DNA from: Eukaryota sp. GEM-RC1
Taxonomy: Eukaryota
Length of the DNA: 64,000 bases
Reading direction: 5' to 3'
NCBI GenBank assembly: GCA_040285855.1
Contig: JAUFOQ010000010.1
Span: 620,001 to 684,000, forward strand
Shown: in pieces, positions 1 to 64,000 of the stretch
How the letters are laid out: each line of letters begins with the position of its first letter
Position numbering within the stretch: the first letter of the stretch is position 1
The notes under the pieces: generated by a model
What the model was told of the DNA's origin: nothing
The model's input: the letters and a program-made list of their open reading frames with translations, nothing else
The model's database searches: none
Position numbers and translations under genes: made by a program

Positions 1-499
1 ATAAGTCACACATAAACAAATATCAAAGCAGTTTAGCAGTCGATCATACACAGATTGATTTTCAGTTTTACCCGGTAATTAAGACTCGTCATATCGAAAA
101 GTTCATTTGCTATTGTTTTCAACTACACCACGTATTAAATGGTATCTGGAAATGATGTAACATTATACTACATGTTTTGAAATGATTCGAATCACCGACA
201 CAGTGTCTCGTTATTAACACGGTTGTATTTTTTCTCAAAAAACAGCTTAATTGTCCATGAGTTGAGTGATGCTTTGATTATTCTTAGTGATTTATAAGAT
301 GTACAGTATCCTTTTGTATCTACTCCAAAGATATTTTAGTCATGGTAATTTATTAAATATTGGTCAAAATTAGGTTGTTCGTTAGATTCTGTTTTAGTGA
401 TCTGTGATTTAATTGGAAATCTTGTCACACAATTGTCCTAACATACAAAGTAGGTTTTTGTTTATCTTAAATTGAGTTTATTATCTAACATTATCTAAG

Positions 500-1132
500 C
501 TTCTCTTTACTGGATATGGGTTCTATGAACCGGCTAGCATTTCCGATTTCTATCTACATTACAACTCAACTGGTCCTGAAGGCGCTATTGCAATTGCTGA
601 AGCTTTGAAGGAGAATTCGTCTGTTTTTTCGATCAATCTAGGTAACAACTCAATTGGTAATGAAGGCGCTATTGCAATTGCTGAAGCTTTGAAGGTGAAT
701 TCGTCTGTTTCTACGATCAATCTAGGTAACAACTCAATTGGTAATGAAGGCGCTATTGCAATTGCTGAAGCTTTGAAGGTGAATTCGTCTGTTTTTTCGA
801 TCAATCTAGGTAACAACTCAATTGGTAATGAAGGCGCTATTGCAATTGCTGAAGCTTTGAAGGTGAATTCGTCTGTTTCTACGATCTATCTAGGTAACAA
901 CTCAATTGGTCCTGAAGGCGCTATTGCAATTGCTGAAGCTTTGAAGGTGAATTCGTCTGTTTCTACGATCAATCTAGGTAACAACTCAATTGGTAATGAA
1001 GGCGCTATTGCAATTGCTGAAGCTTTGAAGGTGAATTCGTCTGTTTCTTCGATTTATCTACATAGCAACTCAATTAACAGTCAAACACAACAGTCGTTAA
1101 AATCACTACACAAGAATAGAATTCATTTCTAA
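500..1132 (+). CDS. LRR cassette, unit 1 (5 extra 28-aa RI-class modules); no in-frame ATG
   Basis: Repeats of KVNSSVSTIxLxxNSIGxEGAIAIAEAL ending in NRIHF*. Frame is open back to TGA 473-475. Start is placed at the candidate splice acceptor, and expression is unproven. Confidence 0.7.
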   Translation, partial: LLFTGYGFYEPASISDFYLHYNSTGPEGAIAIAEALKENSSVFSINLGNNSIGNEGAIAIAEALKVNSSVSTINLGNNSIGNEGAIAIAEALKVNSSVFSINLGNNSIGNEGAIAIAEALKVNSSVSTIYLGNNSIGPEGAIAIAEALKVNSSVSTINLGNNSIGNEGAIAIAEALKVNSSVSSIYLHSNSINSQTQQSLKSLHKNRIHF

Positions 1133-1665
1133 AGATATTTTCCTCTGATAGAAAGATCACCCCATTATAAGTCACACATAAACAAATATCAAAGCAGTTT
1201 AGCAGTCGATCATACACAGATTGATTTTCAGTTTTACCCGGTAATTAAGACTCGTCATATCGAAAAGTTCATTTGCTATTGTTTTCAACAACACCACGTA
1301 TTAAATGGTATCTGGAAATGATGTAACATTATACTACATGTTTTGAAATGATTCGAATCACCGACACAGTGTCTCGTTATTAACACGGTTGTATTTTTTC
1401 TCAAAAAACAGCTTAATTGTCCATGAGTTGAGTGATGCTTTGATTATTCTTAGTGATTTATAAGATGTACAGTATCCTTTTGTATCTACTCCAAAGATAT
1501 TTTAGTCATGGTAATTTATTAAATATTGGTCAAAATTAGGTTGTTCGTTAGATTCTGTTTTAGTGATCTGTGATTTAATTGGAAATCTTGTCACACAATT
1601 GTCCTAACATACAAAGTAGGTTTTTGTTTATCTTAAATTGAGTTTATTATCTAACATTATCTAAG

Positions 1666-2718
1666 CTTCTCTTTACTGGATATGGGTTCTATGAACCGGC
1701 TAGCATTTCCGATTTCTATCTACATTACAACTCAACTGGTCCTGAAGGCGCTATTGCAATTGCTGAAGCTTTGAAGGTGAATTCGTCTGTTTTTTCGATC
1801 AATCTAGGTAACAACTCAATTGGTAATGAAGGCGCTATTGCAATTGCTGAAGCTTTGAAGGTGAATTCGTCTGTTTCTACGATCTATCTAGGTAACAACT
1901 CAATTGGTAATGAAGGCGCTATTGCAATTGCTGAAGCTTTGAAGGTGAATTCGTCTGTTTCTACGATCTATCTACATAACAACTCAATTGGTCCTGAAGG
2001 CGCTATTGCAATTGCTGAAGCTTTGAAGGTGAATTCTTCAGTTTCTACGATTTATCTACATTACAACTCAATTGGTCCTGAAGGCGCTACTGTAATTGCT
2101 GAAGCTTTGAAGGTGAATTCTTCACTTTCTAGAATCGATCTAGATGGCAACTTAATTGGTAATGAAGGCACTATTGCAATTGCCGAAGCTTTGAAGGTGA
2201 ATTCTTCACTTTCTAGAATCGATCTAAATAACAACTCAATTGGTAATGAAGGCGCTATTGCAATTGCTGAAGCTTTGAAGGTGAATTCGTCTGTTTTTTC
2301 GATCAATCTAGGTAACAACTCAATTGGTAATGAAGGCGCTATTGCAATTGCTGAAGCTTTGAAGGTGAATTCGTCTGTTTCTACGATCTATCTACATAAC
2401 AACTCAATTGGTCCTGAAGGCGCTATTGCAATTGCTGAAGCTTTGAAGGTGAATTCTTCAGTTTCTACGATTTATCTACATTACAACTCAATTGGTCCTG
2501 AAGGCGCTATTGCAATTGCTGAAGCTTTGAAGGTGAATTCGTCTGTTTCTACGATCAATCTAGGTAACAACTCAATTGGTAATGAAGGCGCTATTGCAAT
2601 TGCTGAAGCTTTGAAGGTGAATTCTTCTGTTTCTTCGATTTATCTACATAGCAACTCAATTAACAGTCAAACACAACAGTCGTTAAAATCACTACACAAG
2701 AATAGAATTCATTTCTAA
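1666..2718 (+). CDS. LRR cassette, unit 2 (10 extra modules)
   Basis: ORF track 1771-2718 (315 aa = 35 + 10x28), with the same ATG-less leader. Confidence 0.7.
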   Translation, partial: LLFTGYGFYEPASISDFYLHYNSTGPEGAIAIAEALKVNSSVFSINLGNNSIGNEGAIAIAEALKVNSSVSTIYLGNNSIGNEGAIAIAEALKVNSSVSTIYLHNNSIGPEGAIAIAEALKVNSSVSTIYLHYNSIGPEGATVIAEALKVNSSLSRIDLDGNLIGNEGTIAIAEALKVNSSLSRIDLNNNSIGNEGAIAIAEALKVNSSVFSINLGNNSIGNEGAIAIAEALKVNSSVSTIYLHNNSIGPEGAIAIAEALKVNSSVSTIYLHYNSIGPEGAIAIAEALKVNSSVSTINLGNNSIGNEGAIAIAEALKVNSSVSSIYLHSNSINSQTQQSLKSLHKNRIHF

Positions 2719-4743
2719 AGATATTTTCCTCTGATAGAAAGATCACCCCATTATAAGTCACACATAAACAAATATCAAAGCAGTTTAGCAGTCGATCATA
2801 CACAGATTGATTTTCAGTTTTACCCGGTAATTAAGACTCGTCATATCGAAAAGTTCATTTGCTATTGTTTTCAACAACACCACGTATTAAATGGTATCTG
2901 GAAATGATGTAACATTATACTACATGTTTTGAAATGATTCGAATCACCGACACAGTGTCTCGTTATTAACACGGTTGTATTTTTTCTCAAAAAACAGCTT
3001 AATTGTCCATGAGTTGAGTGATGCTTTGATTATTCTTAGTGATTTATAAGATGTACAGTATCCTTTTGTATCTACTCCAAAGATATTTTAGTCGTGGTAA
3101 TTTATTAAATATTGGTCAAAATTAGGTTGTTCGTTAGATTCTGTTTTAGTGATCTGTGATTTAATTGGAAATCTTGTCACACAATTGTCCTAACATACAA
3201 AGTAGGTTTTTGTTTATCTTAAATTGAGTTTATTATCTAACATTATCTAAGCTTCTCTTTACTGGATATGGGTTCTATGAACCGGCTAGCATTTCCGATT
3301 TCTATCTACATTACAACTCAACTGGTCCTGAAGGCGCTATTGCAATTGCTGAAGCTTTGAAGGTGAATTCTTCACTGTCTACGATTTATCTACGTAACAA
3401 CTCAATTAACAGTCAAACACAACAATCATTAAAATCACTACACAAGAATAGAATTCATTTCTAAAGATATTTTCCTCTGATAGAAAGATCACCCCATTAT
3501 AAGTCACACATAAACAAATATCAAAGCAGTTTAGCAGTCGATCATACACAGATTGATTTTCAGTTTTACCCGGTAATTAAGACTCGTCATATCGAAAAGT
3601 TCATTTGCTATTGTTTTCAACAACACCACGTATTAATTGGTATCTGGAAATGATGTAACATTATACTATATGTTTCGAAATGATTCGAATCACCGACACA
3701 GTGTCTCGCTGTTAACACGGTTGTATTTTTTCTCAAAAAACAGCTTAATTGTCCATGAGTTGAGTGATGCTTTGATTATTCTTAGTGATTTATAAGATGT
3801 ACAGTATCCTTTTGTATCTACTCCAAAGATATTTTAGTCGTGGTAATTTATTAAATATTGGTCAAAATTAGGTTGTTCGTTAGATTCTGTTTTAGTGATC
3901 TGTGATTTAATTGGAAATCTTGTCACACAATTGTCCTAACATACAAAGTAGGTTTTTGTTTATCTTAAATTGAGTTTATTATCTAACATTATCTAAGCTT
4001 CTCTTTACTGGATATGGGTTCTATGAACCGGCTAGCATTTCCGATTTCTATCTACATTACAACTCAACTGGTCCTGAAGGCGCTATTGCAATTGCTGAAG
4101 CTTTGAAGGTGAATTCTTCACTGTCTACGATTTATCTACGTAACAACTCAATTAACAGTCAAACACAACAATCATTAAAATCACTACACAAGAATAGAAT
4201 TCATTTCTAAAGATATTTTCCTCTGATAGAAAGATCACCCCATTATAAGTCACACATAAACAAATATCAAAGCAGTTTAGCAGTCGATCATACACAGATT
4301 GATTTTCAGTTTTACCCGGTAATTAAGACTCGTCATATCGAAAAGTTCATTTGCTATTGTTTTCAACAACACCACGTATTAAATGGTATCTGGAAATGAT
4401 GTAACATTATACTACATGTTTTGAAATGATTCGAATCACCGACACAGTGTCTCGTTATTAACACGGTTGTATTTTTTCTCAAAAAACAGCTTAATTGTCC
4501 ATGAGTTGAGTGATGCTTTGATTATTCTTAGTGATTTATAAGATGTACAGTATCCTTTTGTATCTACTCCAAAGATATTTTAGTCGTGGTAATTTATTAA
4601 ATATTGGTCAAAATTAGGTTGTTCGTTAGATTCTGTTTTAGTGATCTGTGATTTAATTGGAAATCTTGTCACACAATTGTCCTAACATACAAAGTAGGTT
4701 TTTGTTTATCTTAAATTGAGTTTATTATCTAACATTATCTAAG

Positions 4744-5376
4744 CTTCTCTTTACTGGATATGGGTTCTATGAACCGGCTAGCATTTCCGATTTCTATCTA
4801 CATTACAACTCAACTGGTCCTGAAGGCGCTATTGCAATTGCTGAAGCTTTGAAGGAGAATTCGTCTGTTTTTTCGATCAATCTAGGTAACAACTCAATTG
4901 GTAATGAAGGCGCTATTGCAATTGCTGAAGCTTTGAAGGTGAATTCGTCTGTTTCTACGATCAATCTAGGTAACAACTCAATTGGTAATGAAGGCGCTAT
5001 TGCAATTGCTGAAGCTTTGAAGGTGAATTCGTCTGTTTTTTCGATCAATCTAGGTAACAACTCAATTGGTAATGAAGGCGCTATTGCAATTGCTGAAGCT
5101 TTGAAGGTGAATTCGTCTGTTTCTACGATCTATCTAGGTAACAACTCAATTGGTCCTGAAGGCGCTATTGCAATTGCTGAAGCTTTGAAGGTGAATTCGT
5201 CTGTTTCTACGATCAATCTAGGTAACAACTCAATTGGTAATGAAGGCGCTATTGCAATTGCTGAAGCTTTGAAGGTGAATTCGTCTGTTTCTTCGATTTA
5301 TCTACATAGCAACTCAATTAACAGTCAAACACAACAGTCGTTAAAATCACTACACAAGAATAGAATTCATTTCTAA
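4744..5376 (+). CDS. LRR cassette, unit 5 (5 extra modules; same protein as unit 1)
   Basis: Identical translation to 605-1132, offset 4244 bp. Confidence 0.7.
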   Translation, partial: LLFTGYGFYEPASISDFYLHYNSTGPEGAIAIAEALKENSSVFSINLGNNSIGNEGAIAIAEALKVNSSVSTINLGNNSIGNEGAIAIAEALKVNSSVFSINLGNNSIGNEGAIAIAEALKVNSSVSTIYLGNNSIGPEGAIAIAEALKVNSSVSTINLGNNSIGNEGAIAIAEALKVNSSVSSIYLHSNSINSQTQQSLKSLHKNRIHF

Positions 5377-5909
5377 AGATATTTTCCTCTGATAGAAAGA
5401 TCACCCCATTATAAGTCACACATAAACAAATATCAAAGCAGTTTAGCAGTCGATCATACACAGATTGATTTTCAGTTTTACCCGGTAATTAAGACTCGTC
5501 ATATCGAAAAGTTCATTTGCTATTGTTTTCAACAACACCACGTATTAAATGGTATCTGGAAATGATGTAACATTATACTACATGTTTTGAAATGATTCGA
5601 ATCACCGACACAGTGTCTCGTTATTAACACGGTTGTATTTTTTCTCAAAAAACAGCTTAATTGTCCATGAGTTGAGTGATGCTTTGATTATTCTTAGTGA
5701 TTTATAAGATGTACAGTATCCTTTTGTATCTACTCCAAAGATATTTTAGTCATGGTAATTTATTAAATATTGGTCAAAATTAGGTTGTTCGTTAGATTCT
5801 GTTTTAGTGATCTGTGATTTAATTGGAAATCTTGTCACACAATTGTCCTAACATACAAAGTAGGTTTTTGTTTATCTTAAATTGAGTTTATTATCTAACA
5901 TTATCTAAG

Positions 5910-6962
5910 CTTCTCTTTACTGGATATGGGTTCTATGAACCGGCTAGCATTTCCGATTTCTATCTACATTACAACTCAACTGGTCCTGAAGGCGCTATTG
6001 CAATTGCTGAAGCTTTGAAGGTGAATTCGTCTGTTTTTTCGATCAATCTAGGTAACAACTCAATTGGTAATGAAGGCGCTATTGCAATTGCTGAAGCTTT
6101 GAAGGTGAATTCGTCTGTTTCTACGATCTATCTAGGTAACAACTCAATTGGTAATGAAGGCGCTATTGCAATTGCTGAAGCTTTGAAGGTGAATTCGTCT
6201 GTTTCTACGATCTATCTACATAACAACTCAATTGGTCCTGAAGGCGCTATTGCAATTGCTGAAGCTTTGAAGGTGAATTCTTCAGTTTCTACGATTTATC
6301 TACATTACAACTCAATTGGTCCTGAAGGCGCTACTGTAATTGCTGAAGCTTTGAAGGTGAATTCTTCACTTTCTAGAATCGATCTAGATGGCAACTTAAT
6401 TGGTAATGAAGGCACTATTGCAATTGCCGAAGCTTTGAAGGTGAATTCTTCACTTTCTAGAATCGATCTAAATAACAACTCAATTGGTAATGAAGGCGCT
6501 ATTGCAATTGCTGAAGCTTTGAAGGTGAATTCGTCTGTTTTTTCGATCAATCTAGGTAACAACTCAATTGGTAATGAAGGCGCTATTGCAATTGCTGAAG
6601 CTTTGAAGGTGAATTCGTCTGTTTCTACGATCTATCTACATAACAACTCAATTGGTCCTGAAGGCGCTATTGCAATTGCTGAAGCTTTGAAGGTGAATTC
6701 TTCAGTTTCTACGATTTATCTACATTACAACTCAATTGGTCCTGAAGGCGCTATTGCAATTGCTGAAGCTTTGAAGGTGAATTCGTCTGTTTCTACGATC
6801 AATCTAGGTAACAACTCAATTGGTAATGAAGGCGCTATTGCAATTGCTGAAGCTTTGAAGGTGAATTCTTCTGTTTCTTCGATTTATCTACATAGCAACT
6901 CAATTAACAGTCAAACACAACAGTCGTTAAAATCACTACACAAGAATAGAATTCATTTCTAA
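5910..6962 (+). CDS. LRR cassette, unit 6 (10 extra modules; same protein as unit 2)
   Basis: Identical translation to 1771-2718, offset 4244 bp. Confidence 0.7.
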   Translation, partial: LLFTGYGFYEPASISDFYLHYNSTGPEGAIAIAEALKVNSSVFSINLGNNSIGNEGAIAIAEALKVNSSVSTIYLGNNSIGNEGAIAIAEALKVNSSVSTIYLHNNSIGPEGAIAIAEALKVNSSVSTIYLHYNSIGPEGATVIAEALKVNSSLSRIDLDGNLIGNEGTIAIAEALKVNSSLSRIDLNNNSIGNEGAIAIAEALKVNSSVFSINLGNNSIGNEGAIAIAEALKVNSSVSTIYLHNNSIGPEGAIAIAEALKVNSSVSTIYLHYNSIGPEGAIAIAEALKVNSSVSTINLGNNSIGNEGAIAIAEALKVNSSVSSIYLHSNSINSQTQQSLKSLHKNRIHF

Positions 6963-9900
6963 AGATATTTTCCTCTGATAGAAAGATCACCCCATTATAA
7001 GTCACACATAAACAAATATCAAAGCAGTTTAGCAGTCGATCATACACAGATTGATTTTCAGTTTTACCCGGTAATTAAGACTCGTCATATCGAAAAGTTC
7101 ATTTGCTATTGTTTTCAACAACACCACGTATTAAATGGTATCTGGAAATGATGTAACATTATACTACATGTTTTGAAATGATTCGAATCACCGACACAGT
7201 GTCTCGTTATTAACACGGTTGTATTTTTTCTCAAAAAACAGCTTAATTGTCCATGAGTTGAGTGATGCTTTGATTATTCTTAGTGATTTATAAGATGTAC
7301 AGTATCCTTTTGTATCTACTCCAAAGATATTTTAGTCGTGGTAATTTATTAAATATTGGTCAAAATTAGGTTGTTCGTTAGATTCTGTTTTAGTGATCTG
7401 TGATTTAATTGGAAATCTTGTCACACAATTGTCCTAACATACAAAGTAGGTTTTTGTTTATCTTAAATTGAGTTTATTATCTAACATTATCTAAGCTTCT
7501 CTTTACTGGATATGGGTTCTATGAACCGGCTAGCATTTCCGATTTCTATCTACATTACAACTCAACTGGTCCTGAAGGCGCTATTGCAATTGCTGAAGCT
7601 TTGAAGGTGAATTCTTCACTGTCTACGATTTATCTACGTAACAACTCAATTAACAGTCAAACACAACAATCATTAAAATCACTACACAAGAATAGAATTC
7701 ATTTCTAAAGATATTTTCCTCTGATAGAAAGATCACCCCATTATAAGTCACACATAAACAAATATCAAAGCAGTTTAGCAGTCGATCATACACAGATTGA
7801 TTTTCAGTTTTACCCGGTAATTAAGACTCGTCATATCGAAAAGTTCATTTGCTATTGTTTTCAACAACACCACGTATTAATTGGTATCTGGAAATGATGT
7901 AACATTATACTATATGTTTCGAAATGATTCGAATCACCGACACAGTGTCTCGCTGTTAACACGGTTGTATTTTTTCTCAAAAACAGCTTAATTGTCCATG
8001 AGTTGAGTGATGCTTTGATTATTCTTAGTGATTTATAAGATGTACAGTATCCTTTTGTATCTACTCCAAAGATATTTTAGTCGTGGTAATTTATTAAATA
8101 TTGGTCAAAATTAGGTTGTTCGTTAGATTCTGTTTTAGTGATCTGTGATTTAATTGGAAATCTTGTCACACAATTGTCCTAACATACAAAGTAGGTTTTT
8201 GTTTATCTTAAATTGAGTTTATTATCTAACATTATCTAAGCTTCTCTTTACTGGATATGGGTTCTATGAACCGGCTAGCATTTCCGATTTCTATCTACAT
8301 TACAACTCAACTGGTCCTGAAGGCGCTATTGCAATTGCTGAAGCTTTGAAGGTGAATTCTTCACTGTCTACGATTTATCTACGTAACAACTCAATTAACA
8401 GTCAAACACAACAATCATTAAAATCACTACACAAGAATAGAATTCATTTCTAAAGATATTTTCCTCTGATAGAAAGATCACCCCATTATAAGTCACACAT
8501 AAACAAATATCAAAGCAGTTTAGCAGTCGATCATACACAGATTGATTTTCAGTTTTACCCGGTAATTAAGACTCGTCATATCGAAAAGTTCATTTGCTAT
8601 TGTTTTCAACAACACCACGTATTAAATGGTATCTGGAAATGATGTAACATTATACTACATGTTTTGAAATGATTCGAATCACCGACACAGTGTCTCGTTA
8701 TTAACACGGTTGTATTTTTTCTCAAAAAACAGCTTAATTGTCCATGAGTTGAGTGATGCTTTGATTATTCTTAGTGATTTATAAGATGTACAGTATCCTT
8801 TTGTATCTACTCCAAAGATATTTTAGTCGTGGTAATTTATTAAATATTGGTCAAAATTAGGTTGTTCGTTAGATTCTGTTTTAGTGATCTGTGATTTAAT
8901 TGGAAATCTTGTCACACAATTGTCCTAACATACAAAGTAGGTTTTTGTTTATCTTAAATTGAGTTTATTATCTAACATTATCTAAGCTTCTCTTTACTGG
9001 ATATGGGTTCTATGAACCGGCTAGCATTTCCGATTTCTATCTACATTACAACTCAACTGGTCCTGAAGGCGCTATTGCAATTGCTGAAGCTTTGAAGGTG
9101 AATTCTTCACTGTCTACGATTTATCTACGTAACAACTCAATTAACAGTCAAACACAACAATCATTAAAATCACTACACAAGAATAGAATTCATTTCTAAA
9201 GATATTTTCCTCTGATAGAAAGATCACCCCATTATAAGTCACACATAAACAAATATCAAAGCAGTTTAGCAGTCGATCATACACAGATTGATTTTCAGTT
9301 TTACCCGGTAATTAAGACTCGTCATATCGAAAAGTTCATTTGCTATTGTTTTCAACAACACCACGTATTAAATGGTATCTGGAAATGATGTAACATTATA
9401 CTACATGTTTTGAAATGATTCGAATCACCGACACAGTGTCTCGTTATTAACACGGTTGTATTTTTTCTCAAAAAACAGCTTAATTGTCCATGAGTTGAGT
9501 GATGCTTTGATTATTCTTAGTGATTTATAAGATGTACAGTATCCTTTTGTATCTACTCCAAAGATATTTTAGTCGTGGTAATTTATTAAATATTGGTCAA
9601 AATTAGGTTGTTCGTTAGATTCTGTTTTAGTGATCTGTGATTTAATTGGAAATCTTGTCACACAATTGTCCTAACATACAAAGTAGGTTTTTGTTTATCT
9701 TAAATTGAGTTTATTATCTAACATTATCTAAGCTTCTCTTTACTGGATATGGGTTCTATGAACCGGCTAGCATTTCCGATTTCTATCTACATTACAACTC
9801 AACTGGTCCTGAAGGCGCTATTGCAATTGCTGAAGCTTTGAAGGTGAATTCTTCACTGTCTACGATTTATCTACGTAACAACTCAATTAACAGTCAAACA

Positions 9901-15900: not shown

Positions 15901-17406
15901 GAATTCATTTCTAAAGATATTTTCCTCTGATAGAAAGATCACCCCATTATAAGTCACACATAAACAAATATCAAAGCAGTTTAGCAGTCGATCATACACA
16001 GATTGATTTTCAGTTTTACCCGGTAATTAAGACTCGTCATATCGAAAAGTTCATTTGCTATTGTTTTCAACAACACCACGTATTAAATGGTATCTGGAAA
16101 TGATGTAACATTATACTACATGTTTTGAAATGATTCGAATCACCGACACAGTGTCTCGTTATTAACACGGTTGTATTTTTTCTCAAAAAACAGCTTAATT
16201 GTCCATGAGTTGAGTGATGCTTTGATTATTCTTAGTGATTTATAAGATGTACAGTATCCTTTTGTATCTACTCCAAAGATATTTTAGTCGTGGTAATTTA
16301 TTAAATATTGGTCAAAATTAGGTTGTTCGTTAGATTCTGTTTTAGTGATCTGTGATTTAATTGGAAATCTTGTCACACAATTGTCCTAACATACAAAGTA
16401 GGTTTTTGTTTATCTTAAATTGAGTTTATTATCTAACATTATCTAAGCTTCTCTTTACTGGATATGGGTTCTATGAACCGGCTAGCATTTCCGATTTCTA
16501 TCTACATTACAACTCAACTGGTCCTGAAGGCGCTATTGCAATTGCTGAAGCTTTGAAGGTGAATTCTTCACTGTCTACGATTTATCTACGTAACAACTCA
16601 ATTAACAGTCAAACACAACAATCATTAAAATCACTACACAAGAATAGAATTCATTTCTTAAGATATTTTCCTCTGATAGAAAGATCACCCCATTATAAGT
16701 CACACATAAACAAATATCAAAGCAGTTTAGCAGTCGATCATACACAGATTGATTTTCAGTTTTACCCGGTAATTAAGACTCGTCATATCGAAAAGTTCAT
16801 TTGCTATTGTTTTCAACAACACCACGTATTAAATGGTATCTGGAAATGATGTAACATTATACTACATGTTTTGAAATGATTCGAATCACCGACACAGTGT
16901 CTCGTTATTAACACGGTTGTATTTTTTCTCAAAAAACAGCTTAATTGTCCATGAGTTGAGTGATGCTTTGATTATTCTTAGTGATTTATAAGATGTACAG
17001 TATCCTTTTGTATCTACTCCAAAGATATTTTAGTCGTGGTAATTTATTAAATATTGGTCAAAATTAGGTTGTTCGTTAGATTCTGTTTTAGTGATCTGTG
17101 ATTTAATTGGAAATCTTGTCACACAATTGTCCTAACATACAAAGTAGGTTTTTGTTTATCTTAAATTGAGTTTATTATCTAACATTATCTAAGCTTCTCT
17201 TTACTGGATATGGGTTCTATGAACCGGCTAGCATTTCCGATTTCTATCTACATTACAACTCAACTGGTCCTGAAGGCGCTATTGCAATTGCTGAAGCTTT
17301 GAAGGTGAATTCTTCACTGTCTACGATTTATCTACGTAACAACTCAATTAACAGTCAAACACAACAATCATTAAAATCACTACACAAGAATAGAATTCAT
17401 TTCTAA
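6963..17406 (+). repeat. Run of 14 minimal ~746-bp units (units 7-20): leader half-module plus terminal module and cap only
   Basis: Each reads ...FYLHYNSTGPEGAIAIAE(A/G)LKVNSSLSTIYLRNNSINSQTQQSLKSLHKNRIHF. Unit 15 has a 1-nt insertion near 13599. Other minimal units are 3, 4, 22, 23 and 24. Confidence 0.95.
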
Positions 17407-17939
17407 AGATATTTTCCTCTGATAGAAAGATCACCCCATTATAAGTCACACATAAACAAATATCAAAGCAGTTTAGCAGTCGATCATACACAGATTGATT
17501 TTCAGTTTTACCCGGTAATTAAGACTCGTCATATCGAAAAGTTCATTTGCTATTGTTTTCAACAACACCACGTATTAAATGGTATCTGGAAATGATGTAA
17601 CATTATACTACATGTTTTGAAATGATTCGCATCACCGACACAGTGTCTCGTTATTAACACGGTTGTATTTTTTCTCAAAAAACAGCTTAATTGTCGTTAT
17701 GTTGAGTGATGCTTTGATTATTCTTAGTGATTTATAAGATGTACAGTATCCTTTTGTATCTATTCCAAAGATATTTTAGTCATGGTAATTTATTGAATAT
17801 TGGTCAAAATTAGGTTATTCGTTAGATTCTGTTTTAGTGATCTGTAATTTAATTGGAAATCTTGTCACACAATTGTCTTAACATACAAAGTAGGTTTTTG
17901 TTTATCTTAAATTGAGTTTATTATCTAACATTATCTAAG

Positions 17940-18404
17940 CTTCTCTTTACGGGATATGGGTTCTATGAACCGGCTAGAATTTCCGATTTCTATCTACATT
18001 ACAACTCAACTGGTCCTGAAGGCGCTATTGCAATTGCTGAAGGTTTGAAGGTGAATTCTTCACTTTCTACGATCTATCTATATAACAACTCAATTGGTAC
18101 TGAAGGCGCTATTGCAATTGCTGAAGCTTTGAAGGTGAATTCTTCACTTTCTATGATCGATCTACGTAACAACTCAATTGGTCCTGAAGGCGCTATTGCA
18201 ATTGCTGAAGCTTTGAAGGTGAATTCGTCTGTTTCTACGATCAATCTAAATAACAACTCAATTGGTAATGAAGGCGCTATTGCAATTGCTGAAGGTTTGA
18301 AGGTGAATTCGTCTGTTTCTTCGATTTATCTACATGGCAACTCAATTAACAGTCAAACACAACAGTCGTTAAAATCACTGCACAAGAATAGAATTCATTT
18401 CTAA
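17940..18404 (+). CDS. LRR cassette, unit 21 (3 extra modules)
   Basis: ORF track 18045-18404, 119 aa = 35 + 3x28. Confidence 0.65.
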   Translation, partial: LLFTGYGFYEPARISDFYLHYNSTGPEGAIAIAEGLKVNSSLSTIYLYNNSIGTEGAIAIAEALKVNSSLSMIDLRNNSIGPEGAIAIAEALKVNSSVSTINLNNNSIGNEGAIAIAEGLKVNSSVSSIYLHGNSINSQTQQSLKSLHKNRIHF

Positions 18405-21175
18405 AGATATTTTCCTCTGATATAAAGATCAGCCCATTATAAGTCACACATAAACAAATATCAAAGCAGTTTAGCAGTCGATCATACACAGATTGATTTT
18501 CAGTTTTACCCGGTAATTAAGACTCGTCATATCGAAAAGTTCATTTGCTATTGTTTTCAACAACACCACGTATTAAATGGTATCTGGAAATGATGTAACA
18601 TTATACTACATGTTTTGAAATGATTCGAATCACCGACACAGTGTCTCGTTATTAACACGGTTGTATTTTTTCTCAAAAAACAGCTTAATTGTCCATGAGT
18701 TGAGTGATGCTTTGATTATTCTTAGTGATTTATAAGATGTACAGTATCCTTTTGTATCTACTCCAAAGATATTTTAGTCGTGGTAATTTATTAAATATTG
18801 GTCAAAATTAGGTTGTTCGTTAGATTCTGTTTTAGTGATCTGTGATTTAATTGGAAATCTTGTCACACAATTGTCCTAACATACAAAGTAGGTTTTTGTT
18901 TATCTTAAATTGAGTTTATTATCTAACATTATCTAAGCTTCTCTTTACTGGATATGGGTTCTATGAACCGGCTAGCATTTCCGATTTCTATCTACATTAC
19001 AACTCAACTGGTCCTGAAGGCGCTATTGCAATTGCTGAAGCTTTGAAGGTGAATTCTTCACTGTCTACGATTTATCTACGTAACAACTCAATTAACAGTC
19101 AAACACAACAATCATTAAAATCACTACACAAGAATAGAATTCATTTCTAAAGATATTTTCCTCTGATAGAAAGATCACCCCATTATAAGTCACACATAAA
19201 CAAATATCAAAGCAGTTTAGCAGTCGATCATACACAGATTGATTTTCAGTTTTACCCGGTAATTAAGACTCGTCATATCGAAAAGTTCATTTGCTATTGT
19301 TTTCAACAACACCACGTATTAAATGGTATCTGGAAATGATGTAACATTATACTACATGTTTTGAAATGATTCGAATCACCGACACAGTGTCTCGTTATTA
19401 ACACGGTTGTATTTTTTCTCAAAAAACAGCTTAATTGTCCATGAGTTGAGTGATGCTTTGATTATTCTTAGTGATTTATAAGATGTACAGTATCCTTTTG
19501 TATCTACTCCAAAGATATTTTAGTCGTGGTAATTTATTAAATATTGGTCAAAATTAGGTTGTTCGTTAGATTCTGTTTTAGTGATCTGTGATTTAATTGG
19601 AAATCTTGTCACACAATTGTCCTAACATACAAAGTAGGTTTTTGTTTGTCTTAAATTGAGTTTATTATCTAACATTATCTAAGCTTCTCTTTACTGGATA
19701 TGGGTTCTATGAACCGGCTAGCATTTCCGATTTCTATCTACATTACAACTCAACTGGTCCTGAAGGCGCTATTGCAATTGCTGAAGCTTTGAAGGTGAAT
19801 TCTTCACTGTCTACGATTTATCTACGTAACAACTCAATTAACAGTCAAACACAACAATCATTAAAATCACTACACAAGAATAGAATTCATTTCTAAAGAT
19901 ATTTTCCTCTGATAGAAAGATCACCCCATTATAAGTCACACATAAACAAATATCAAAGCAGTTTAGCAGTCGATCATACACAGATTGATTTTCAGTTTTA
20001 CCCGGTAATTAAGACTCGTCATATCGAAAAGTTCATTTGCTATTGTTTTCAACAACACCACGTATTAAATGGTATCTGGAAATGATGTAACATTATACTA
20101 CATGTTTTGAAATGATTCGAATCACCGACACAGTGTCTCGTTATTAACACGGTTGTATTTTTTCTCAAAAAACAGCTTAATTGTCCATGAGTTGAGTGAT
20201 GCTTTGATTATTCTTAGTGATTTATAAGATGTACAGTATCCTTTTGTATCTACTCCAAAGATATTTTAGTCGTGGTAATTTATTAAATATTGGTCAAAAT
20301 TAGGTTGTTCGTTAGATTCTGTTTTAGTGATCTGTGATTTAATTGGAAATCTTGTCACACAATTGTCCTAACATACAAAGTAGGTTTTTGTTTATCTTAA
20401 ATTGAGTTTATTATCTAACATTATCTAAGCTTCTCTTTACTGGATATGGGTTCTATGAACCGGCTAGCATTTCCGATTTCTATCTACATTACAACTCAAC
20501 TGATCCTGAAGGCGCTATTGCAATTGCTGAAGCTTTGAAGGTGAATTCTTCACTGTCTACGATTTATCTACGTAACAACTCAATTAACAGTCAAACACAA
20601 CAATCATTAAAATCACTACACAAGAATAGAATTCATTTCTAAAGATATTTTCCTCTGATAGAAAGATCACCCCATTATAAGTCACACATAAACAAATATC
20701 AAAGCAGTTTAGCAGTCGATCATACACAGATTGATTTTCAGTTTTACCCGGTAATTAAGACTCGTCATATCGAAAAGTTCATTTGCTATTGTTTTCAACA
20801 ACACCACGTATTAAATGGTATCTGGAAATGATGTAACATTATACTACATGTTTTGAAATGATTCGAATCACCGACACAGTGTCTCGTTATTAACACGGTT
20901 GTATTTTTTCTCAAAAAACAGCTTAATTGTCGTTATGTTGAGTGATGCTTTGATTATTCTTAGTGATTTATAAGATGTACAGTATCCTTTTGTATCTATT
21001 CCAAAGATATTTTAGTCATGGTAATTTATTGAATATTGGTCAAAATTAGGTTATTCGTTAGATTCTGTTTTAGTGATCTGTAATTTAATTGGAAATCTTG
21101 TCACACAATTGTCTTAACATACAAAGTAGGTTTTTGTTTATCTTAAATTGAGTTTATTATCTAACATTATCTAAG

Positions 21176-21640
21176 CTTCTCTTTACGGGATATGGGTTCT
21201 ATGAACCGGCTAGAATTTCCGATTTCTATCTACATTACAACTCAACTGGTCCTGAAGGCGCTATTGCAATTGCTGAAGGTTTGAAGGTGAATTCTTCACT
21301 TTCTACGATCTATCTATATAACAACTCATTTGGTACTGAAGGCGCTATTGCAATTGCTGAAGCTTTGAAGGTGAATTCTTCACTTTCTATGATCGATCTA
21401 CGTAACAACTCAATTGGTCCTGAAGGCGCTATTGCAATTGCTGAAGCTTTGAAGGTGAATTCGTCTGTTTCTACGATCAATCTAAATAACAACTCAATTG
21501 GTAATGAAGGCGCTATTGCAATTGCTGAAGGTTTGAAGGTGAATTCGTCTGTTTCTTCGATTTATCTACATAGCAACTCAATTAACAGTCAAACACAACA
21601 GTCGTTAAAATCACTGCACAAGAATAGAATTCATTTCTAA
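21176..21640 (+). CDS. LRR cassette, unit 25 (3 extra modules)
   Basis: ORF track 21281-21640. Confidence 0.65.
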   Translation, partial: LLFTGYGFYEPARISDFYLHYNSTGPEGAIAIAEGLKVNSSLSTIYLYNNSFGTEGAIAIAEALKVNSSLSMIDLRNNSIGPEGAIAIAEALKVNSSVSTINLNNNSIGNEGAIAIAEGLKVNSSVSSIYLHSNSINSQTQQSLKSLHKNRIHF

Positions 21641-22173
21641 AGATATTTTCCTCTGATATAAAGATCACCCCATTATAAGTCACACATAAACAAATATCAA
21701 AGCAGTTTAGCAGTCGATCATACACAGATTGATTTTCAGTTTTACCCGGTAATTAAGACTCGTCATATCGAAAAGTTCATTTGCTATTGTTTTCAACAAC
21801 ACCACGTATTAAATGGTATCTGGAAATGATGTAACATTATACTACATGTTTTGAAATGATTCGAATCACCGACACAATGTCTCGTTATTAACACGGTTGT
21901 ATTTTTTCTCAAAAAACAGCTTAATTGTCGTTATGTTGAGTGATGCTTTGATTATTCTTAGTGATTTATAAGATGTACAGTATCCTTTTGTATCTACTCC
22001 AAAGATATTTTAGTCATGGTAATTTATTAAATATTGGTCAAAATTAGGTTGTTCGTTAGATTCTGTTTTAGTGATCTGTGATTTAATTGGAAATCTTGTC
22101 ACACAATTGTCCTAACATACAAAGTAGGTTTTTGTTTATCTTAAATTGAGTTTATTATCTAACATTATCTAAG

Positions 22174-23058
22174 CTTCTCTTTACGGGATATGGGTTCTAT
22201 GAACCGGCTAGCATTTCCGATTTCTATCTACATTACAACTCAACTGGTCCTGAAGGCGCTATTGCAATTGCTGAAGCTTTGAAGGTGAATTCGTTTGTTT
22301 CTACGATTGTTCTAGGTAACAACTCAATTGGTCCTGAAGGCGCTATTGCAATTGCTGAAGCTTTGAAGGTGAATTCGTCTGTTTCTTCGATTTATCTATA
22401 TAACAACTCAATTGGTCCTGAAGGTGCTATTGCAATTGCTGAAGCTTTGAAGGTGAATTCGTCTGTTTCTACGATCGATCTATTTAGCAACTCAATTGGT
22501 AATGAAGGCGCTATTGCAATTGCTGAAGCTTTGAAAGTGAATTCGTCTGTTTCTTCGATTTATCTATATAACAACTCAATTGGTAATGAAGGCGCTATTG
22601 CAATTGCTGCAGCTTTGAAAGTGAATTCGTCTGTTTCTTCGATTTATCTATATAACAACTCAATTGGTAATGAAGGCGCTATTGCAATTGCTGCAGCTTT
22701 GAAAGTGAATTCGTCTGTTTCTTCGATTTATCTATATAACAACTCAATTGGTAATGAAGGCGCTATTGCAATTGCTGAAGCTTTGAAGGTGAATTCTTCA
22801 GTTTCTACGATCAATCTACATAGCAACTCAATTGGTCCTGAAGGCGCTATTGCAATTGCTGAAGCTTTGAAGGTGAATTCGTCTGTTTCTACGATCAATC
22901 TAAATAACAACTCAATTGGTAATGAAGGCGCTATTGCAATTGCTGAAGGTTTGAAGGTGAATTCGTCTGTTTCTTCGATTTATCTACATAGCAACTCAAT
23001 TAACAGTCAAACACAACAGTCGTTAAAATCACTGCACAAGAATAGAATTCATTTCTAA
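22174..23058 (+). CDS. LRR cassette, unit 26 (8 extra modules, distinctive module set)
   Basis: ORF track 22279-23058, 259 aa. Includes STIVLGN, STIDLFS and SSIYLYN modules. Confidence 0.7.
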   Translation, partial: LLFTGYGFYEPASISDFYLHYNSTGPEGAIAIAEALKVNSFVSTIVLGNNSIGPEGAIAIAEALKVNSSVSSIYLYNNSIGPEGAIAIAEALKVNSSVSTIDLFSNSIGNEGAIAIAEALKVNSSVSSIYLYNNSIGNEGAIAIAAALKVNSSVSSIYLYNNSIGNEGAIAIAAALKVNSSVSSIYLYNNSIGNEGAIAIAEALKVNSSVSTINLHSNSIGPEGAIAIAEALKVNSSVSTINLNNNSIGNEGAIAIAEGLKVNSSVSSIYLHSNSINSQTQQSLKSLHKNRIHF

Positions 23059-23591
23059 AGATATTTTCCTCTGATATAAAGATCACCCCATTATAAGTCA
23101 CACATAAACAAATATCAAAGCAGTTTAGCAGTCGATCATACACAGATTGATTTTCAGTTTTACCCGGTAATTAAGACTCGTCATATCGAAAAGTTCATTT
23201 GCTATTGTTTTCAACAACACCACGTATTAAATGGTATCTGGAAATGATGTAACATTATACTACATGTTTTGAAATGATTCGAATCACCGACACAGTGTCT
23301 CGTTATTAACACGGTTGTATTTTTTCTCAAAAAACAGCTTAATTGTCGTTATGTTGAGTGATGCTTTGATTATTCTTAGTGATTTATAAGATGTACAGTA
23401 TCCTTTTGTATCTATTCCAAAGATATTTTAGTCATGGTAATTTATTGAATATTGGTCAAAATTAGGTTATTCGTTAGATTCTGTTTTAGTGATCTGTAAT
23501 TTAATTGGAAATCTTGTCACACAATTGTCTTAACATACAAAGTAGGTTTTTGTTTATCTTAAATTGAGTTTATTATCTAACATTATCTAAG

Positions 23592-24056
23592 CTTCTCTTT
23601 ACGGGATATGGGTTCTATGAACCGGCTAGAATTTCCGATTTCTATCTACATTACAACTCAACTGGTCCTGAAGGCGCTATTGCAATTGCTGAAGGTTTGA
23701 AGGTGAATTCTTCACTTTCTACGATCTATCTATATAACAACTCAATTGGTACTGAAGGCGCTATTGCAATTGCTGAAGCTTTGAAGGTGAATTCTTCACT
23801 TTCTATGATCGATCTACGTAACAACTCAATTGGTCCTGAAGGCGCTATTGCAATTGCTGAAGCTTTGAAGGTGAATTCGTCTGTTTCTACGATCAATCTA
23901 GGTAACAACTCAATTGGTAATGAAGGCGCTATTGCAATTGCTGAAGCTTTGAAGGTGAATTCGTCTGTTTCTTCGATTTATCTACATAGCAACTCAATTA
24001 ACAGTCAAACACAACAGTCGTTAAAATCACTACACAAGAATAGAATTCATTTCTAA
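23592..24056 (+). CDS. LRR cassette, unit 27 (3 extra modules)
   Basis: ORF track 23697-24056. Confidence 0.65.
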   Translation, partial: LLFTGYGFYEPARISDFYLHYNSTGPEGAIAIAEGLKVNSSLSTIYLYNNSIGTEGAIAIAEALKVNSSLSMIDLRNNSIGPEGAIAIAEALKVNSSVSTINLGNNSIGNEGAIAIAEALKVNSSVSSIYLHSNSINSQTQQSLKSLHKNRIHF

Positions 24057-24589
24057 AGATATTTTCCTCTGATATAAAGATCACCCCATTATAAGTCACA
24101 CATAAACAAATATCAAAGCAGTTTAGCAGTCGATCATACACAGATTGATTTTCAGTTTTACCCGGTAATTAAGACTCGTCATATCGAAAAGTTCATTTGC
24201 TATTGTTTTCAACAACACCACGTATTAAATGGTATCTGGAAATGATGTAACATTATACTACATGTTTTGAAATGATTCGAATCACCGACACAGTGTCTCG
24301 TTATTAACACGGTTGTATTTTTTCTCAAAAAACAGCTTAATTGTCGTTATGTTGAGTGATGCTTTGATTATTCTTAGTGATTTATAAGATGTACAGTATC
24401 CTTTTGTATCTATTCCAAAGATATTTTAGTCATGGTAATTTATTGAATATTGGTCAAAATTAGGTTATTCGTTAGATTCTGTTTTAGTGATCTGTAATTT
24501 AATTGGAAATCTTGTCACACAATTGTCTTAACATACAAAGTAGGTTTTTGTTTATCTTAAATTGAGTTTATTATCTAACATTATCTAAG

Positions 24590-25054
24590 CTTCTCTTTAC
24601 GGGATATGGGTTCTATAAACCGGCTAGAATTTCCGATTTCTATCTACATTACAACTCAACTGGTCCTGAAGGCGCTATTGCAATTGCTGAAAGTTTGAAG
24701 GTGAATTCTTCACTTTCTACGATCTATCTATATAACAACTCAATTGGTACTGAAGGCGCTATTGCAATTGCTGAAGCTTTGAAGGTGAATTCTTCACTTT
24801 CTATGATCGATCTACGTAACAACTCAATTGGTCCTGAAGGCGCTATTGCAATTGCTGAAGCTTTGAAGGTGAATTCGTCTGTTTCTACGATCAATCTAGG
24901 TAACAACTCAATTGGTAATGAAGGCGCTATTGCAATTGCTGAAGGTTTGAAGGTGAATTCGTCTGTTTCTTCGATTTATCTACATAGCAACTCAATTAAC
25001 AGTCAAACACAACAGTCGTTAAAATCACTACACAAGAATAGAATTCATTTCTAA
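24590..25054 (+). CDS. LRR cassette, unit 28 (3 extra modules)
   Basis: ORF track 24695-25054. Confidence 0.65.
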   Translation, partial: LLFTGYGFYKPARISDFYLHYNSTGPEGAIAIAESLKVNSSLSTIYLYNNSIGTEGAIAIAEALKVNSSLSMIDLRNNSIGPEGAIAIAEALKVNSSVSTINLGNNSIGNEGAIAIAEGLKVNSSVSSIYLHSNSINSQTQQSLKSLHKNRIHF

Positions 25055-25587
25055 AGATATTTTCCTCTGATATAAAGATCACCCCATTATAAGTCACACA
25101 TAAACAAATATCAAAGCAGTTTAGCAGTCGATCATACACAGATTGATTTTCAGTTTTACCCGGTAATTAAGACTCGTCATATCGAAAAGTTCATTTGCTA
25201 TTGTTTTCAACAACACCACGTATTAAATGGTATCTGGAAATGATGTAACATTATACTACATGTTTTGAAATGATTCGAATCACCGACACAGTGTCTCGTT
25301 ATTAACACGGTTGTATTTTTTCTCAAAAAACAGCTTAATTGTCGTTATGTTGAGTGATGCTTTGATTATTCTTAGTGATTTATAAGATGTACAGTATCCT
25401 TTTGTATCTATTCCAAAGATATTTTAGTCATGGTAATTTATTGAATATTGGTCAAAATTAGGTTATTCGTTAGATTCTGTTTTAGTGATCTGTAATTTAA
25501 TTGGAAATCTTGTCACACAATTGTCTTAACATACAAAGTAGGTTTTTGTTTATCTTAAATTGAGTTTATTATCTAACATTATCTAAG

Positions 25588-26052
25588 CTTCTCTTTACGG
25601 GATATGGGTTCTATGAACCGGCTAGAATTTCCGATTTCTATCTACATTACAACTCAACTGGTCCTGAAGGCGCTATTGCAATTGCTGAAGGTTTGAAGGT
25701 GAATTCTTCACTTTCTACGATCTATCTATATAACAACTCAATTGGTACTGAAGGCGCTATTGCAATTGCTGAAGCTTTGAAGGTGAATTCGTCTGTTTCT
25801 ACGATCAATCTAGGTAACAACTCAATTGGTCCTGAAGGCGCTATTGCAATTGCTGAAGCTTTGAAGGTGAATTCGTCTGTTTCTACGATCAATCTAGGTA
25901 ACAACTCAATTGGTAATGAAGGCGCTATTGCAATTGCTGAAGCTTTGAAGGTGAATTCGTCTGTTTCTTCGATTTATCTACATAGCAACTCAATTAACAG
26001 TCAAACACAACAGTCGTTAAAATCACTACACAAGAATAGAATTCATTTCTAA
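25588..26052 (+). CDS. LRR cassette, unit 29 (3 extra modules)
   Basis: ORF track 25693-26052. Confidence 0.65.
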   Translation, partial: LLFTGYGFYEPARISDFYLHYNSTGPEGAIAIAEGLKVNSSLSTIYLYNNSIGTEGAIAIAEALKVNSSVSTINLGNNSIGPEGAIAIAEALKVNSSVSTINLGNNSIGNEGAIAIAEALKVNSSVSSIYLHSNSINSQTQQSLKSLHKNRIHF

Positions 26053-26585
26053 AGATATTTTCCTCTGATATAAAGATCACCCCATTATAAGTCACACATA
26101 AACAAATATCAAAGCAGTTTAGCAGTCGATCATACACAGATTGATTTTCAGTTTTACCCGGTAATTAAGACTCGTCATATCGAAAAGTTCATTTGCTATT
26201 GTTTTCAACAACACCACGTATTAAATGGTATCTGGAAATGATGTAACATTATACTACATGTTTTGAAATGATTCGAATCACCGACACAGTGTCTCGTTAT
26301 TAACACGGTTGTATTTTTTCTCAAAAAACAGCTTAATTGTCGTTATGTTGAGTGATGCTTTGATTATTCTTAGTGATTTATAAGATGTACAGTATCCTTT
26401 TGTATCTATTCCAAAGATATTTTAGTCATGGTAATTTATTGAATATTGGTCAAAATTAGGTTATTCGTTAGATTCTGTTTTAGTGATCTGTAATTTAATT
26501 GGAAATCTTGTCACACAATTGTCTTAACATACAAAGTAGGTTTTTGTTTATCTTAAATTGAGTTTATTATCTAACATTATCTAAG

Positions 26586-26882
26586 CTTCTCTTTACGGGA
26601 TATGGGTTCTATGAACCGGCTAGAATTTCCGATTTCTATCTACATTACAACTCAACTGGTCCTGAAGGCGCTATTGCAATTGCTGAAGCTTTGAAGGTGA
26701 AATCGTTTGTTTCTACGGTTGGTCTAGGTAACAACTCAATTGATGATGAAGGCGCTATTGCAATTGCTGAAGCTTTGAAGGTAAATTCGTCTGTTTCTAC
26801 GATTTATCTACATAGCAACTCAATTAACAGTCAAACACAACAGTCGTTAAAATCACTACACAAGAATAGAATTCATTTCTAA
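26586..26882 (+). CDS. LRR cassette, unit 30 (1 extra module)
   Basis: ORF track 26691-26882, 63 aa = 35 + 28. Confidence 0.6.
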   Translation, partial: LLFTGYGFYEPARISDFYLHYNSTGPEGAIAIAEALKVKSFVSTVGLGNNSIDDEGAIAIAEALKVNSSVSTIYLHSNSINSQTQQSLKSLHKNRIHF

Positions 26883-29583: not shown

Positions 29584-29799
29584 GATACTTTCGTCGTCAG
29601 AAGGTGGTAAGTTGGGGAGATCTGAGAGTCTCGTTCGGAGGCTTTAGACACAAAGGATTTTGCTATAGAAATCAGTTGAGCAAATGATTTCATTACTTTG
29701 GTGGATTCTGGTTCCTGAGCAGAACTGTTGAATCTAGAAGTTGTTGGATGGATTAGAATGATGATGGTACTGTGAATTGCATTTGTGTTGCATACTACT

Positions 29800-63940: not shown

Positions 63941-64000
63941 GAGGATAATAATTATTAATACCTAAAGGTGCAAAGGGGAAGGTAAAGGGTGTTTATAAAT

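What the first reader, a model, noticed from the sequence alone, without database searches (positions are those of the whole stretch)
605..26882. Hypervariability confined to four codons, all readable as AAT/AAC with only the first two bases changed
Seen: in ...I-X1-L-X2-X3-N-S-I-G-X4-E..., X1 = AAT/TAT/GAT/GTT/GGT, X2 = AAT/GGT/CAT/GAT/CGT/TAT/TTT, X3 = AAC/TAC/GGC/AGC and X4 = AAT/CCT/ACT/GAT. The third base never changes, and the helix scaffold is almost invariant even at synonymous sites. A fifth codon, before the I, varies as ACG/TCG/AGA/ATG. Established: X1-X3 are exposed concave-face positions of the LxxLxLxxN motif, and AAY targeting is the signature of diversity-generating retroelements. 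Against a DGR: synonymous adenines (CTA, GCA, GAA) do not vary, and neither RT in the window is DGR-class. Inference: most likely diversifying selection plus concerted evolution, though targeted mutagenesis is not excluded.
Basis: partly seen in the sequence, partly recalled or inferred. Interest (0 to 1): 0.75.

Follow-up and report, generated by a model that had tools for sequence, protein, structure and literature searches.

The report
Shuffled hypervariable LRR cassettes, not DGR
A 27-kb tandem array in what is likely a protist genome holds headless copies of a leucine-rich-repeat domain whose predicted binding-face codons are hypervariable, likely from selection plus repeat shuffling in related TRIM-like ligase genes, not adenine-targeted mutagenesis.

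Summary
The codon lists are right, but the AAY pattern is not a DGR signature. Window 1-27499 is 30 head-to-tail units plus a broken 31st. Each has a 541-bp leader with no in-frame ATG, ribonuclease-inhibitor-type 84-bp LRR modules and a C-cap. Among 24 distinct internal modules, X1-X4 show 16 non-synonymous and 0 synonymous steps, against 11 and 7 in the scaffold (P=3.5e-4). Five synonymous adenines never change (0/120, against 80/192 at X adenines), and 11/29 variable sites lack an A allele. The all-A module occurs only as a coding module. Close paralogues carry Trp, Gln and Glu at X2. The same positions vary in 24 other high-identity LRR proteins. The closest full-length relatives are RING-B-box-coiled-coil-LRR (TRIM-like) proteins labelled with a metamonad protist name. 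P0005, a shorter member of that family, shares the array's cap and a rare module pair. Best reading: the regime of fungal NWD receptors (concerted evolution plus diversifying selection), on a predicted E3-ligase recognition domain, with the array a probably silent spin-off that may exchange modules. A small third-base/Lys deficit remains (P about 0.02-0.06).

The parts
1..27499 (+). Tandem array of 30 complete units (746+84n bp; n = 0-10 internal modules) plus a truncated 31st; probably continues upstream of the window
1167..1707 (+). Example of the 541-bp leader (unit 2): stops in all frames, no in-frame ATG; the LRR frame opens 21 codons before the first module; no protein homology found except to P0121-type short gene models
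542..1132 (+). Unit 1 LRR frame: divergent first module, 5 internal modules, C-cap and stop
1708..2718 (+). Unit 2 LRR frame (10 internal modules); predicted RI-type solenoid, mean pLDDT 86.5, leader residues disordered; identical copy in unit 6 (5952-6962)
629..631 (+). X0 codon (example, module 626-709): strand residue before the first Ile
635..637 (+). X1 codon (example): strand residue between Ile and Leu
641..646 (+). X2 and X3 codons (example): end of strand and following turn
659..661 (+). X4 codon (example): at or beside the start of the helix, not on the strand
2128..2295 (+). Rare module pair (first module has private scaffold changes at codons 9 and 15), found in the same order in protein P0005; second copy 6372-6539
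18234..18317 (+). Module with AAY at all of X1-X4; in-frame coding module, not a separate template (also 21470-21553, 22888-22971)
22216..23058 (+). Unit 26 LRR frame (8 internal modules, 7 distinct)
26917..27499 (+). Truncated unit 31: more diverged leader resembling P0121-type models; the first module breaks off after 14 codons, ending the array

Best explanation
The region is a tandem array of headless 84-bp LRR-module cassettes whose variable codons sit at the predicted exposed strand positions and likely owe their diversity to ordinary point mutation filtered by diversifying selection and spread by repeat shuffling within a family of TRIM-like RING-B-box-coiled-coil-LRR proteins. Shown: the unit anatomy, the non-synonymous excess at X0-X4, recombinant allele combinations, and a cap and rare modules shared with family member P0005. 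Inferred: (1) selection acts on expressed full-length genes, predicted ubiquitin ligases whose LRR face picks variable targets such as microbial or viral proteins; (2) unequal crossing-over and gene conversion homogenise the scaffold and reshuffle the selected codons within and between loci; (3) the array arose when an LRR 3' half was joined to an unrelated leader and amplified in tandem, is probably untranslated, and takes part in the exchange passively; (4) the AAY look is a by-product of an Asn-rich ancestral module, shallow divergence, low synonymous diversity and a surface preference for Tyr/Asp/His/Asn/Ser/Gly.
For: X1-X4: 16 non-synonymous and 0 synonymous steps; scaffold 11 and 7; binomial P=3.5e-4; zero synonymous changes at X has P=0.46. 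Allele networks are all single-base steps at X1-X4. Four-gamete test positive in 54 of 114 site pairs, including a synonymous-only pair. Module number 0-10 per unit, with reshuffled order. In models of P0360 and unit 2, X0 and X1 (often X2) lie on the strand and X4 at or beside the helix start. The folds found are RI/NOD2-type LRRs. RING and B-box are found in 5 of 8 relatives scanned, with predicted long helices at 163-282 and TRIM28/TRIM3 hits. P0005 holds the rare module pair in order, and P0003/P0005 have the identical 28-aa cap. In 24 other high-identity LRR proteins, the same positions (plus codon 9) are the variable ones. In an unrelated GC-rich locus, L001, 15 of 16 X1-X4 codons end in C. 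Dictyostelium hypervariable LRR sites are dominated by Y/D/H/N (PMC10392669, passages). The regime, including intact repeats in pseudogenes, is described for Podospora NWD genes (PMC1805685, passages).
Against: Third-base constancy in the window is mildly improbable under a neutral stepwise null (P=0.016-0.045). Lys, one step from AAY, is absent family-wide (P=0.02-0.06). K/E/Q/M/W fill 3 of 292 X1-X4 positions in window plus family, against 98 of 820 in the 24 control proteins (modules not independent; at allele level 3 of 27 against 4.2-5.3 expected, P=0.17-0.36). The X codons were picked because they vary, so the P=3.5e-4 is partly post hoc. No codon-model test was run. Only protein sequence was available for paralogues, so exchange versus recent common descent cannot be separated. 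The array frames have no premature stop in 54 internal, 30 first and 30 cap modules (one +1 base in unit 15), and 12 single-intron readings could give an open frame, so silence is not proven. Assembly or polishing errors could create some recombinant modules. Ligase activity and immune role are untested.
Confidence: 0.72

Rival explanations
1. The array is a maintained silent cassette archive that donates LRR modules by gene conversion to expressed TRIM-like genes, in the manner of antigenic-variation or lamprey VLR cassettes (families recalled, not tested).
For: Units have no in-frame ATG and no RING/B-box, yet keep open, foldable modules. They hold 24 distinct modules, more than the 11 or fewer in any single close relative. 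The rare module pair and the cap are shared with P0005/P0003, while the leader is shared with different P0121-type models that have another cap.
Against: Only 4 of 23 distinct window modules occur in the 19 close relatives. 19 of 30 units have no internal module, and 8 of these are identical. Direction of transfer is unknown. Passive participation of pseudogene repeats explains the same data. No conversion machinery was identified.
Confidence: 0.15
2. The units are expressed, spliced or non-ATG short LRR proteins (decoys or adaptors) that are themselves under diversifying selection.
For: Frames are open and fold. Related loci are annotated as 143-aa genes with the same leader (P0121, P0361-P0363). 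12 single-intron readings give an open frame.
Against: The P0121-type reading meets an in-frame stop in all 31 units. Six rare changes in the first module are non-synonymous, some at otherwise near-invariant Gly and Asn. Two units have lost the stop and one has a +1 base. There is no N-cap helix, unlike P0360.
Confidence: 0.1
3. Adenine-targeted mutagenesis (DGR-like retrohoming from an AAY template) rewrites the X codons.
For: AAY is present at all four sites, no third-base change occurs in the window, all of A>G, A>C and A>T occur, and there is a small Lys/third-base deficit.
Against: 0 of 120 non-A at five synonymous adenines against 80 of 192 at X adenines, whereas DGR RT misincorporates at template adenines generally, 52% on average and also at introduced ones (PMC7826257, passages). 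11 of 29 variable sites have no A allele, and no separate template was found on either strand. W/Q/E occur at X2 and W/Q/E/M at X0 in relatives. A few alleles recur (X4 is N/P/S in all 74 full family modules) instead of fresh random draws. The RTs are R2-like and Ty3-like.
Confidence: 0.02

Closest known systems
Fungal NWD/HNWD receptors (het-d, het-e) and other high-internal-conservation NLR repeats
   Same: Near-identical repeats, four diversifying codons per repeat on the interaction surface, repeat-number variation, exchange within and between loci, intact repeats in pseudogenes (PMC1805685, PMC4986451, PMC12222747; passages)
   Different: The repeat is an RI-type LRR, not WD40/ANK/TPR. 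The full-length partners have RING-B-box-coiled coil and no NACHT hit. The headless copies form a 27-kb tandem array.
Ectocarpus ROCO LRR exons
   Same: Shuffled LRR units with positive selection at sites 15, 17, 19 and 20, which correspond to X0, X1, X2 and X3 if the numbering follows the printed consensus; scattered LRRs proposed as a diversity source (PMC3341825, passages)
   Different: There each repeat is an exon of 24 aa, linked to a GTPase; here modules are contiguous 28-aa repeats linked to an RBCC head.
TRIM E3 ligases, such as the expanded fish TRIMs (PMC2657112, search listing only) and TRIM5 (recalled)
   Same: RING-B-box-coiled coil followed by a variable C-terminal domain
   Different: The C-terminal domain is a modular LRR. 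None of 147 other RBCC relatives carried such modules. The window's units lack the RBCC head.
Flavobacterium tandem LRR loci and Dictyostelium purpureum hypervariable LRR proteins
   Same: Tandem genes and fragments with variable repeat number; hypervariable residues rich in Y/D/H/N (PMC10392669, passages)
   Different: Different LRR classes; the Flavobacterium proteins carry secretion signals; no ligase head described.
Diversity-generating retroelements
   Same: AAY codons at variable surface sites on a fixed scaffold
   Different: Synonymous adenines are untouched, non-A sites vary, and there is no template and no DGR-class RT in the window.

Membership tests
DGR | Every template adenine is mutable, synonymous ones included | tested here: not met
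   0/120 against 80/192; property from PMC7826257
DGR | Variation confined to positions that are A in one template | tested here: not met
   11 of 29 segregating sites have no A allele; W/Q/E at X2 in relatives
DGR | Separate invariant template repeat | tested here: not met
   31 matches within 3 mismatches, all in-register coding modules on +, none on -; window only
DGR | DGR-class reverse transcriptase | tested here: not met
   Best solved-structure hits R2-type (E 0.006) and Ty3 (E 1.6e-60); window only, no genome held
DGR | AAY codons at variable sites | tested here: met
   but also seen in unrelated L001
DGR | Avd accessory gene and IMH/hairpin elements | not tested
   not searched
High-internal-conservation repeat regime (NWD type) | Near-identical repeat scaffold | tested here: met
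   scaffold pN 0.022-0.024; 0.96-0.97 scaffold identity in P0003/P0360/P0365
High-internal-conservation repeat regime (NWD type) | A few diversifying codons on the interaction surface | tested here: met
   counting test P=3.5e-4; predicted strand positions; no codon site model run
High-internal-conservation repeat regime (NWD type) | Repeat shuffling and exchange between loci | tested here: inconclusive
   four-gamete 54/114 and shared rare modules; no paralogue DNA or reads to exclude recent descent or assembly mixing
High-internal-conservation repeat regime (NWD type) | Repeat-number polymorphism between isolates | not testable with these tools
   varies between units; no population data
NLR (STAND) receptor | NACHT or NB-ARC domain | tested here: not met
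   no such Pfam hit in unit 2 or in 8 relatives
TRIM (full-length relatives) | RING, B-box, coiled coil in order | tested here: met
   P0360: RING 6-43, B-boxes to 159, helices 163-282
TRIM (window units) | RING, B-box, coiled coil in order | tested here: not met
   leader has stops in all frames and no homology to the family heads
TRIM | E3 ubiquitin ligase activity | not testable with these tools
   needs an assay
Silent-cassette conversion systems (VLR, vlsE-type; recalled) | Non-expressed partial copies | tested here: inconclusive
   no in-frame ATG, but 12 single-intron readings are open
Silent-cassette conversion systems (VLR, vlsE-type; recalled) | Directional, elevated conversion into an expression locus | not testable with these tools
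   needs clonal or population DNA

The most novel reading that the evidence does not exclude
A single-celled eukaryote keeps a tandem archive of silent LRR cassettes that are copied into TRIM-like ubiquitin-ligase genes, building a combinatorial intracellular receptor repertoire, a protist analogue of lamprey VLR assembly coupled directly to degradation.
Probability: 0.15. Interest if true: 0.82.

Novelty: new variant of a known kind. Interest (0 to 1): 0.42.

Why it matters
Little is known about cell-autonomous immunity in free-living protists. A TRIM-like ligase family whose target-binding domain is a modular, rapidly reshuffled LRR would join recognition and ubiquitin tagging in one chain. 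It would also extend the fungal concerted-evolution-plus-selection regime to metamonads and to LRRs. No paper on this architecture came up in my searches (listings only), and passages of the genome paper for the organisms named on the closest relatives had 0 hits for 'leucine' or 'LRR' (its supplements were not seen). The result is also a caution for genome scans: AAY-like variable codons arise without any DGR in Asn-rich repeats.

Tried and rejected
No whole genome is held, so the genome-wide module alignment and RT search could not be run. No sequencing run was listed, no RNA holder either; this is no evidence on expression. An exact 23-base pattern found 0 stretches in metagenome contigs, a degenerate pattern found 0 in viral contigs, and the related-locus scan gave 2 distant loci (38-43% identity). 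I suspected by eye that the leader was a decayed P0009-type N-terminal domain. tblastn, local alignments against 48 relatives (best z about 5, as high on the opposite strand), a profile search swamped by LRR hits and a frameshift-aware alignment (score 30 against shuffled 31 +/- 4) did not support it. No Rfam match in the window. The bacterial promoter scan was at shuffle level and is not apt for a eukaryote. A deaminase-type mutator was rejected because A>G, A>C and A>T all occur at X sites (32, 26, 22). The Capsaspora control was dropped because my pattern caught only 5 modules. Earlier-findings look-ups returned nothing. The Atlas gave B-box/RING clusters at 0.90-0.91 and B-box+LRR_4 clusters at 0.86, leads only. 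No complex was predicted.
Full report
Anatomy. Bases 1-27499 are 30 head-to-tail units of 746+84n bp and a truncated 31st. Each unit has a 541-bp leader (540 in one), a divergent first module, 0-10 internal modules, and a terminal module with C-cap and stop. The modules are 28-aa LRR_6 repeats. The leader has stops in all three frames and no in-frame ATG; the LRR frame opens 21 codons before the first module in all 31 units. 19 of 30 units have no internal module. Units 2 and 6 are identical, 8 short units are identical, and bases 1-3498 recur at 4245 with 2 mismatches, so the array has been amplified recently or is partly over-assembled. No reads were available to tell which.

Observation. 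There are 54 internal modules, 24 distinct as DNA and 23 as protein. Variation is concentrated but not confined: 22 of 28 codons are polymorphic, and synonymous variation is common at codons 3, 26 and 27. Pairwise pN is 0.33-0.36 at X1-X4 (pS 0), against scaffold pN 0.022-0.024 and pS 0.07-0.09; leader diversity is 0.011-0.015. Counting distinct steps gives 16 non-synonymous and 0 synonymous at X1-X4, and 11 and 7 in the other 23 codons: omega about 4.7 against 0.57, binomial P=3.5e-4. The sites were chosen post hoc, but the same positions are independently the variable ones in other organisms (below). All X1-X4 alleles connect by single-base steps, and 54 of 114 informative site pairs show all four gametes, including a synonymous-only pair, which points to recombination among modules.

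DGR test. The five synonymous adenines (codons 5, 9, 13, 17, 20) are A in 120 of 120 observations, while the eight X adenines differ in 80 of 192. DGR RT misincorporates at template adenines in general, 52% on average and also at newly introduced ones (PMC7826257, passages), and selection cannot purge synonymous changes. 11 of 29 segregating sites have no A allele. The all-AAY module exists only as an in-frame coding module, and no out-of-register or minus-strand copy lies within 3 mismatches. The window's RTs are a non-LTR element closest to R2 and a Ty3/gypsy element. I chose 19 close relatives from the 367 proteins fetched by then, by cap and scaffold identity. In their 74 full modules, X2 is W, W, Q or E in 4 and X0 is K/E/Q/M/W in 8; X1, X3 and X4 have none. 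These residues need a purine at the third base, so strict AAY-to-NNY confinement fails.

What remains of the AAY pattern. Zero synonymous changes at X is expected (P=0.46). Zero non-synonymous third-base steps in 16 has P=0.016-0.045 by simulation with three mutation spectra. Family-wide, 3 of 27 non-Asn alleles are K/E/Q/M/W against 4.2-5.3 expected (P=0.17-0.36), and Lys is absent (P=0.02-0.06). At module level the deficit is 3/292 against 98/820 in control proteins, but modules are not independent. X1 and X4 are also poor in these residues in 153 diverged LRR modules from similarly labelled proteins (9 and 1). An unrelated GC-rich locus has 15 of 16 X codons ending in C (L001, 4 modules). 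Dictyostelium hypervariable LRR sites favour Y, D, H and N (PMC10392669, passages). I read the residue as amino-acid preference plus shallow divergence from an Asn-rich module (inference).

Family. The closest relatives (81-92% identity over the matched part) carry the source label Eukaryota sp. GEM-RC1. A paper on free-living metamonads treats an organism of nearly that name as Skoliomonas sp. GEM-RC (bioRxiv 10.1101/2023.05.03.539051, passages). I take the window's organism to be the same or a very close protist, by sequence identity alone. Five of 8 relatives scanned have RING and B-box domains before the LRR. The model of P0360 (mean pLDDT 68, LRR part about 85-98) adds long helices at 163-282, and sequence hits include TRIM28 and TRIM3: a TRIM-like architecture ending in an LRR. 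P0003, P0005 and several others begin inside the coiled-coil/linker region. None of 147 further RBCC relatives carried these LRR modules. In the models, X0 and X1 (often X2) are on the strand, X3 in the following turn and X4 at or beside the helix start; that the strand forms the concave binding face is established LRR knowledge. P0005 contains the array's rare module pair in order, with private changes seen in 1 of 74 family modules, and P0003/P0005 share the 28-aa cap exactly. The leader instead matches four P0121-type short gene models that have a different cap. The units are therefore chimeric. Only 4 of 23 window modules were found in the 19 relatives, which is a partial sample of the family.

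Generality. Among the other proteins fetched, 24 have scaffold identity of 0.85 or more. They include proteins labelled Mortierella, Linnemannia, Acropora and Skeletonema, and unnamed NACHT-LRRs. Their within-protein entropy peaks at X0-X4 and codon 9. The regime matches Podospora NWD genes: four selected codons per repeat, concerted evolution, intact repeats in pseudogenes (PMC1805685, PMC4986451, PMC12222747; passages). It also matches Ectocarpus LRR exons (PMC3341825, passages).

Is the array expressed? Against: no ATG; a stop in the P0121-type reading; six rare non-synonymous changes in first modules, including an AAT-to-AAA change at a scaffold Asn; two lost stops; one +1 base that lies in a T run and may be a sequencing error. 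For: no premature stops, a good fold (pLDDT 86.5) and 12 possible single-intron readings. Unresolved; probably silent.

Verdict. The hypervariability is real. The DGR reading is rejected within the window. The best reading is selection plus repeat shuffling in a TRIM-like LRR family, with a headless array as passive participant (0.72); an active cassette archive is the bold alternative (0.15). New variant of a known kind; interest 0.42.

Noticed in passing
window 46665-48870 (+): Non-LTR retrotransposon split over two overlapping ORFs; RVT_1 domain, weakly closest to R2 RTs
   Followed up: partly
window 57244-64000 (-): Ty3/gypsy LTR retrotransposon: 937-aa gag-like ORF, 1338-aa pol, identical 46-bp repeat at 57244 and at the window end
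   Followed up: partly
window 41421-43025 (+), 51897-53873 (+), 28563-29643 (-), 34742-35203 (-): A second, diverged RI-type LRR family with a shared N-terminal domain of no Pfam family; X codons here use all third bases; two copies look broken
   Followed up: partly
window 36649-40022: 1656-bp tandem duplication with two identical 129-aa cysteine-rich ORFs (37775, 39431) that have a hydrophobic N-terminus and no Pfam hit, each preceded by an element with 41-bp inverted ends, MITE-like
   Followed up: no
window 30002-30343 (-) and 49050-49610 (+): hAT dimerisation and MuDR transposase fragments
   Followed up: no
P0123: A gene model that reads through two head-to-tail short LRR units, hinting at other tandem arrays of this family
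   Followed up: no
P0370, P0372, P0373, P0375, P0379: Related RING-B-box heads joined to other C-terminal domains without a Pfam hit, suggesting domain swapping on one TRIM-like head
   Followed up: partly
P0241-P0360 (one search list): High-identity RI-type LRR arrays with the same hypervariable positions in Mortierellaceae, corals, a diatom and unnamed NACHT-LRR proteins; a broad comparative set worth a study
   Followed up: partly
L001:2127-2462: Unrelated GC-rich gene with four near-identical LRR modules whose variable codons nearly all end in C
   Followed up: partly
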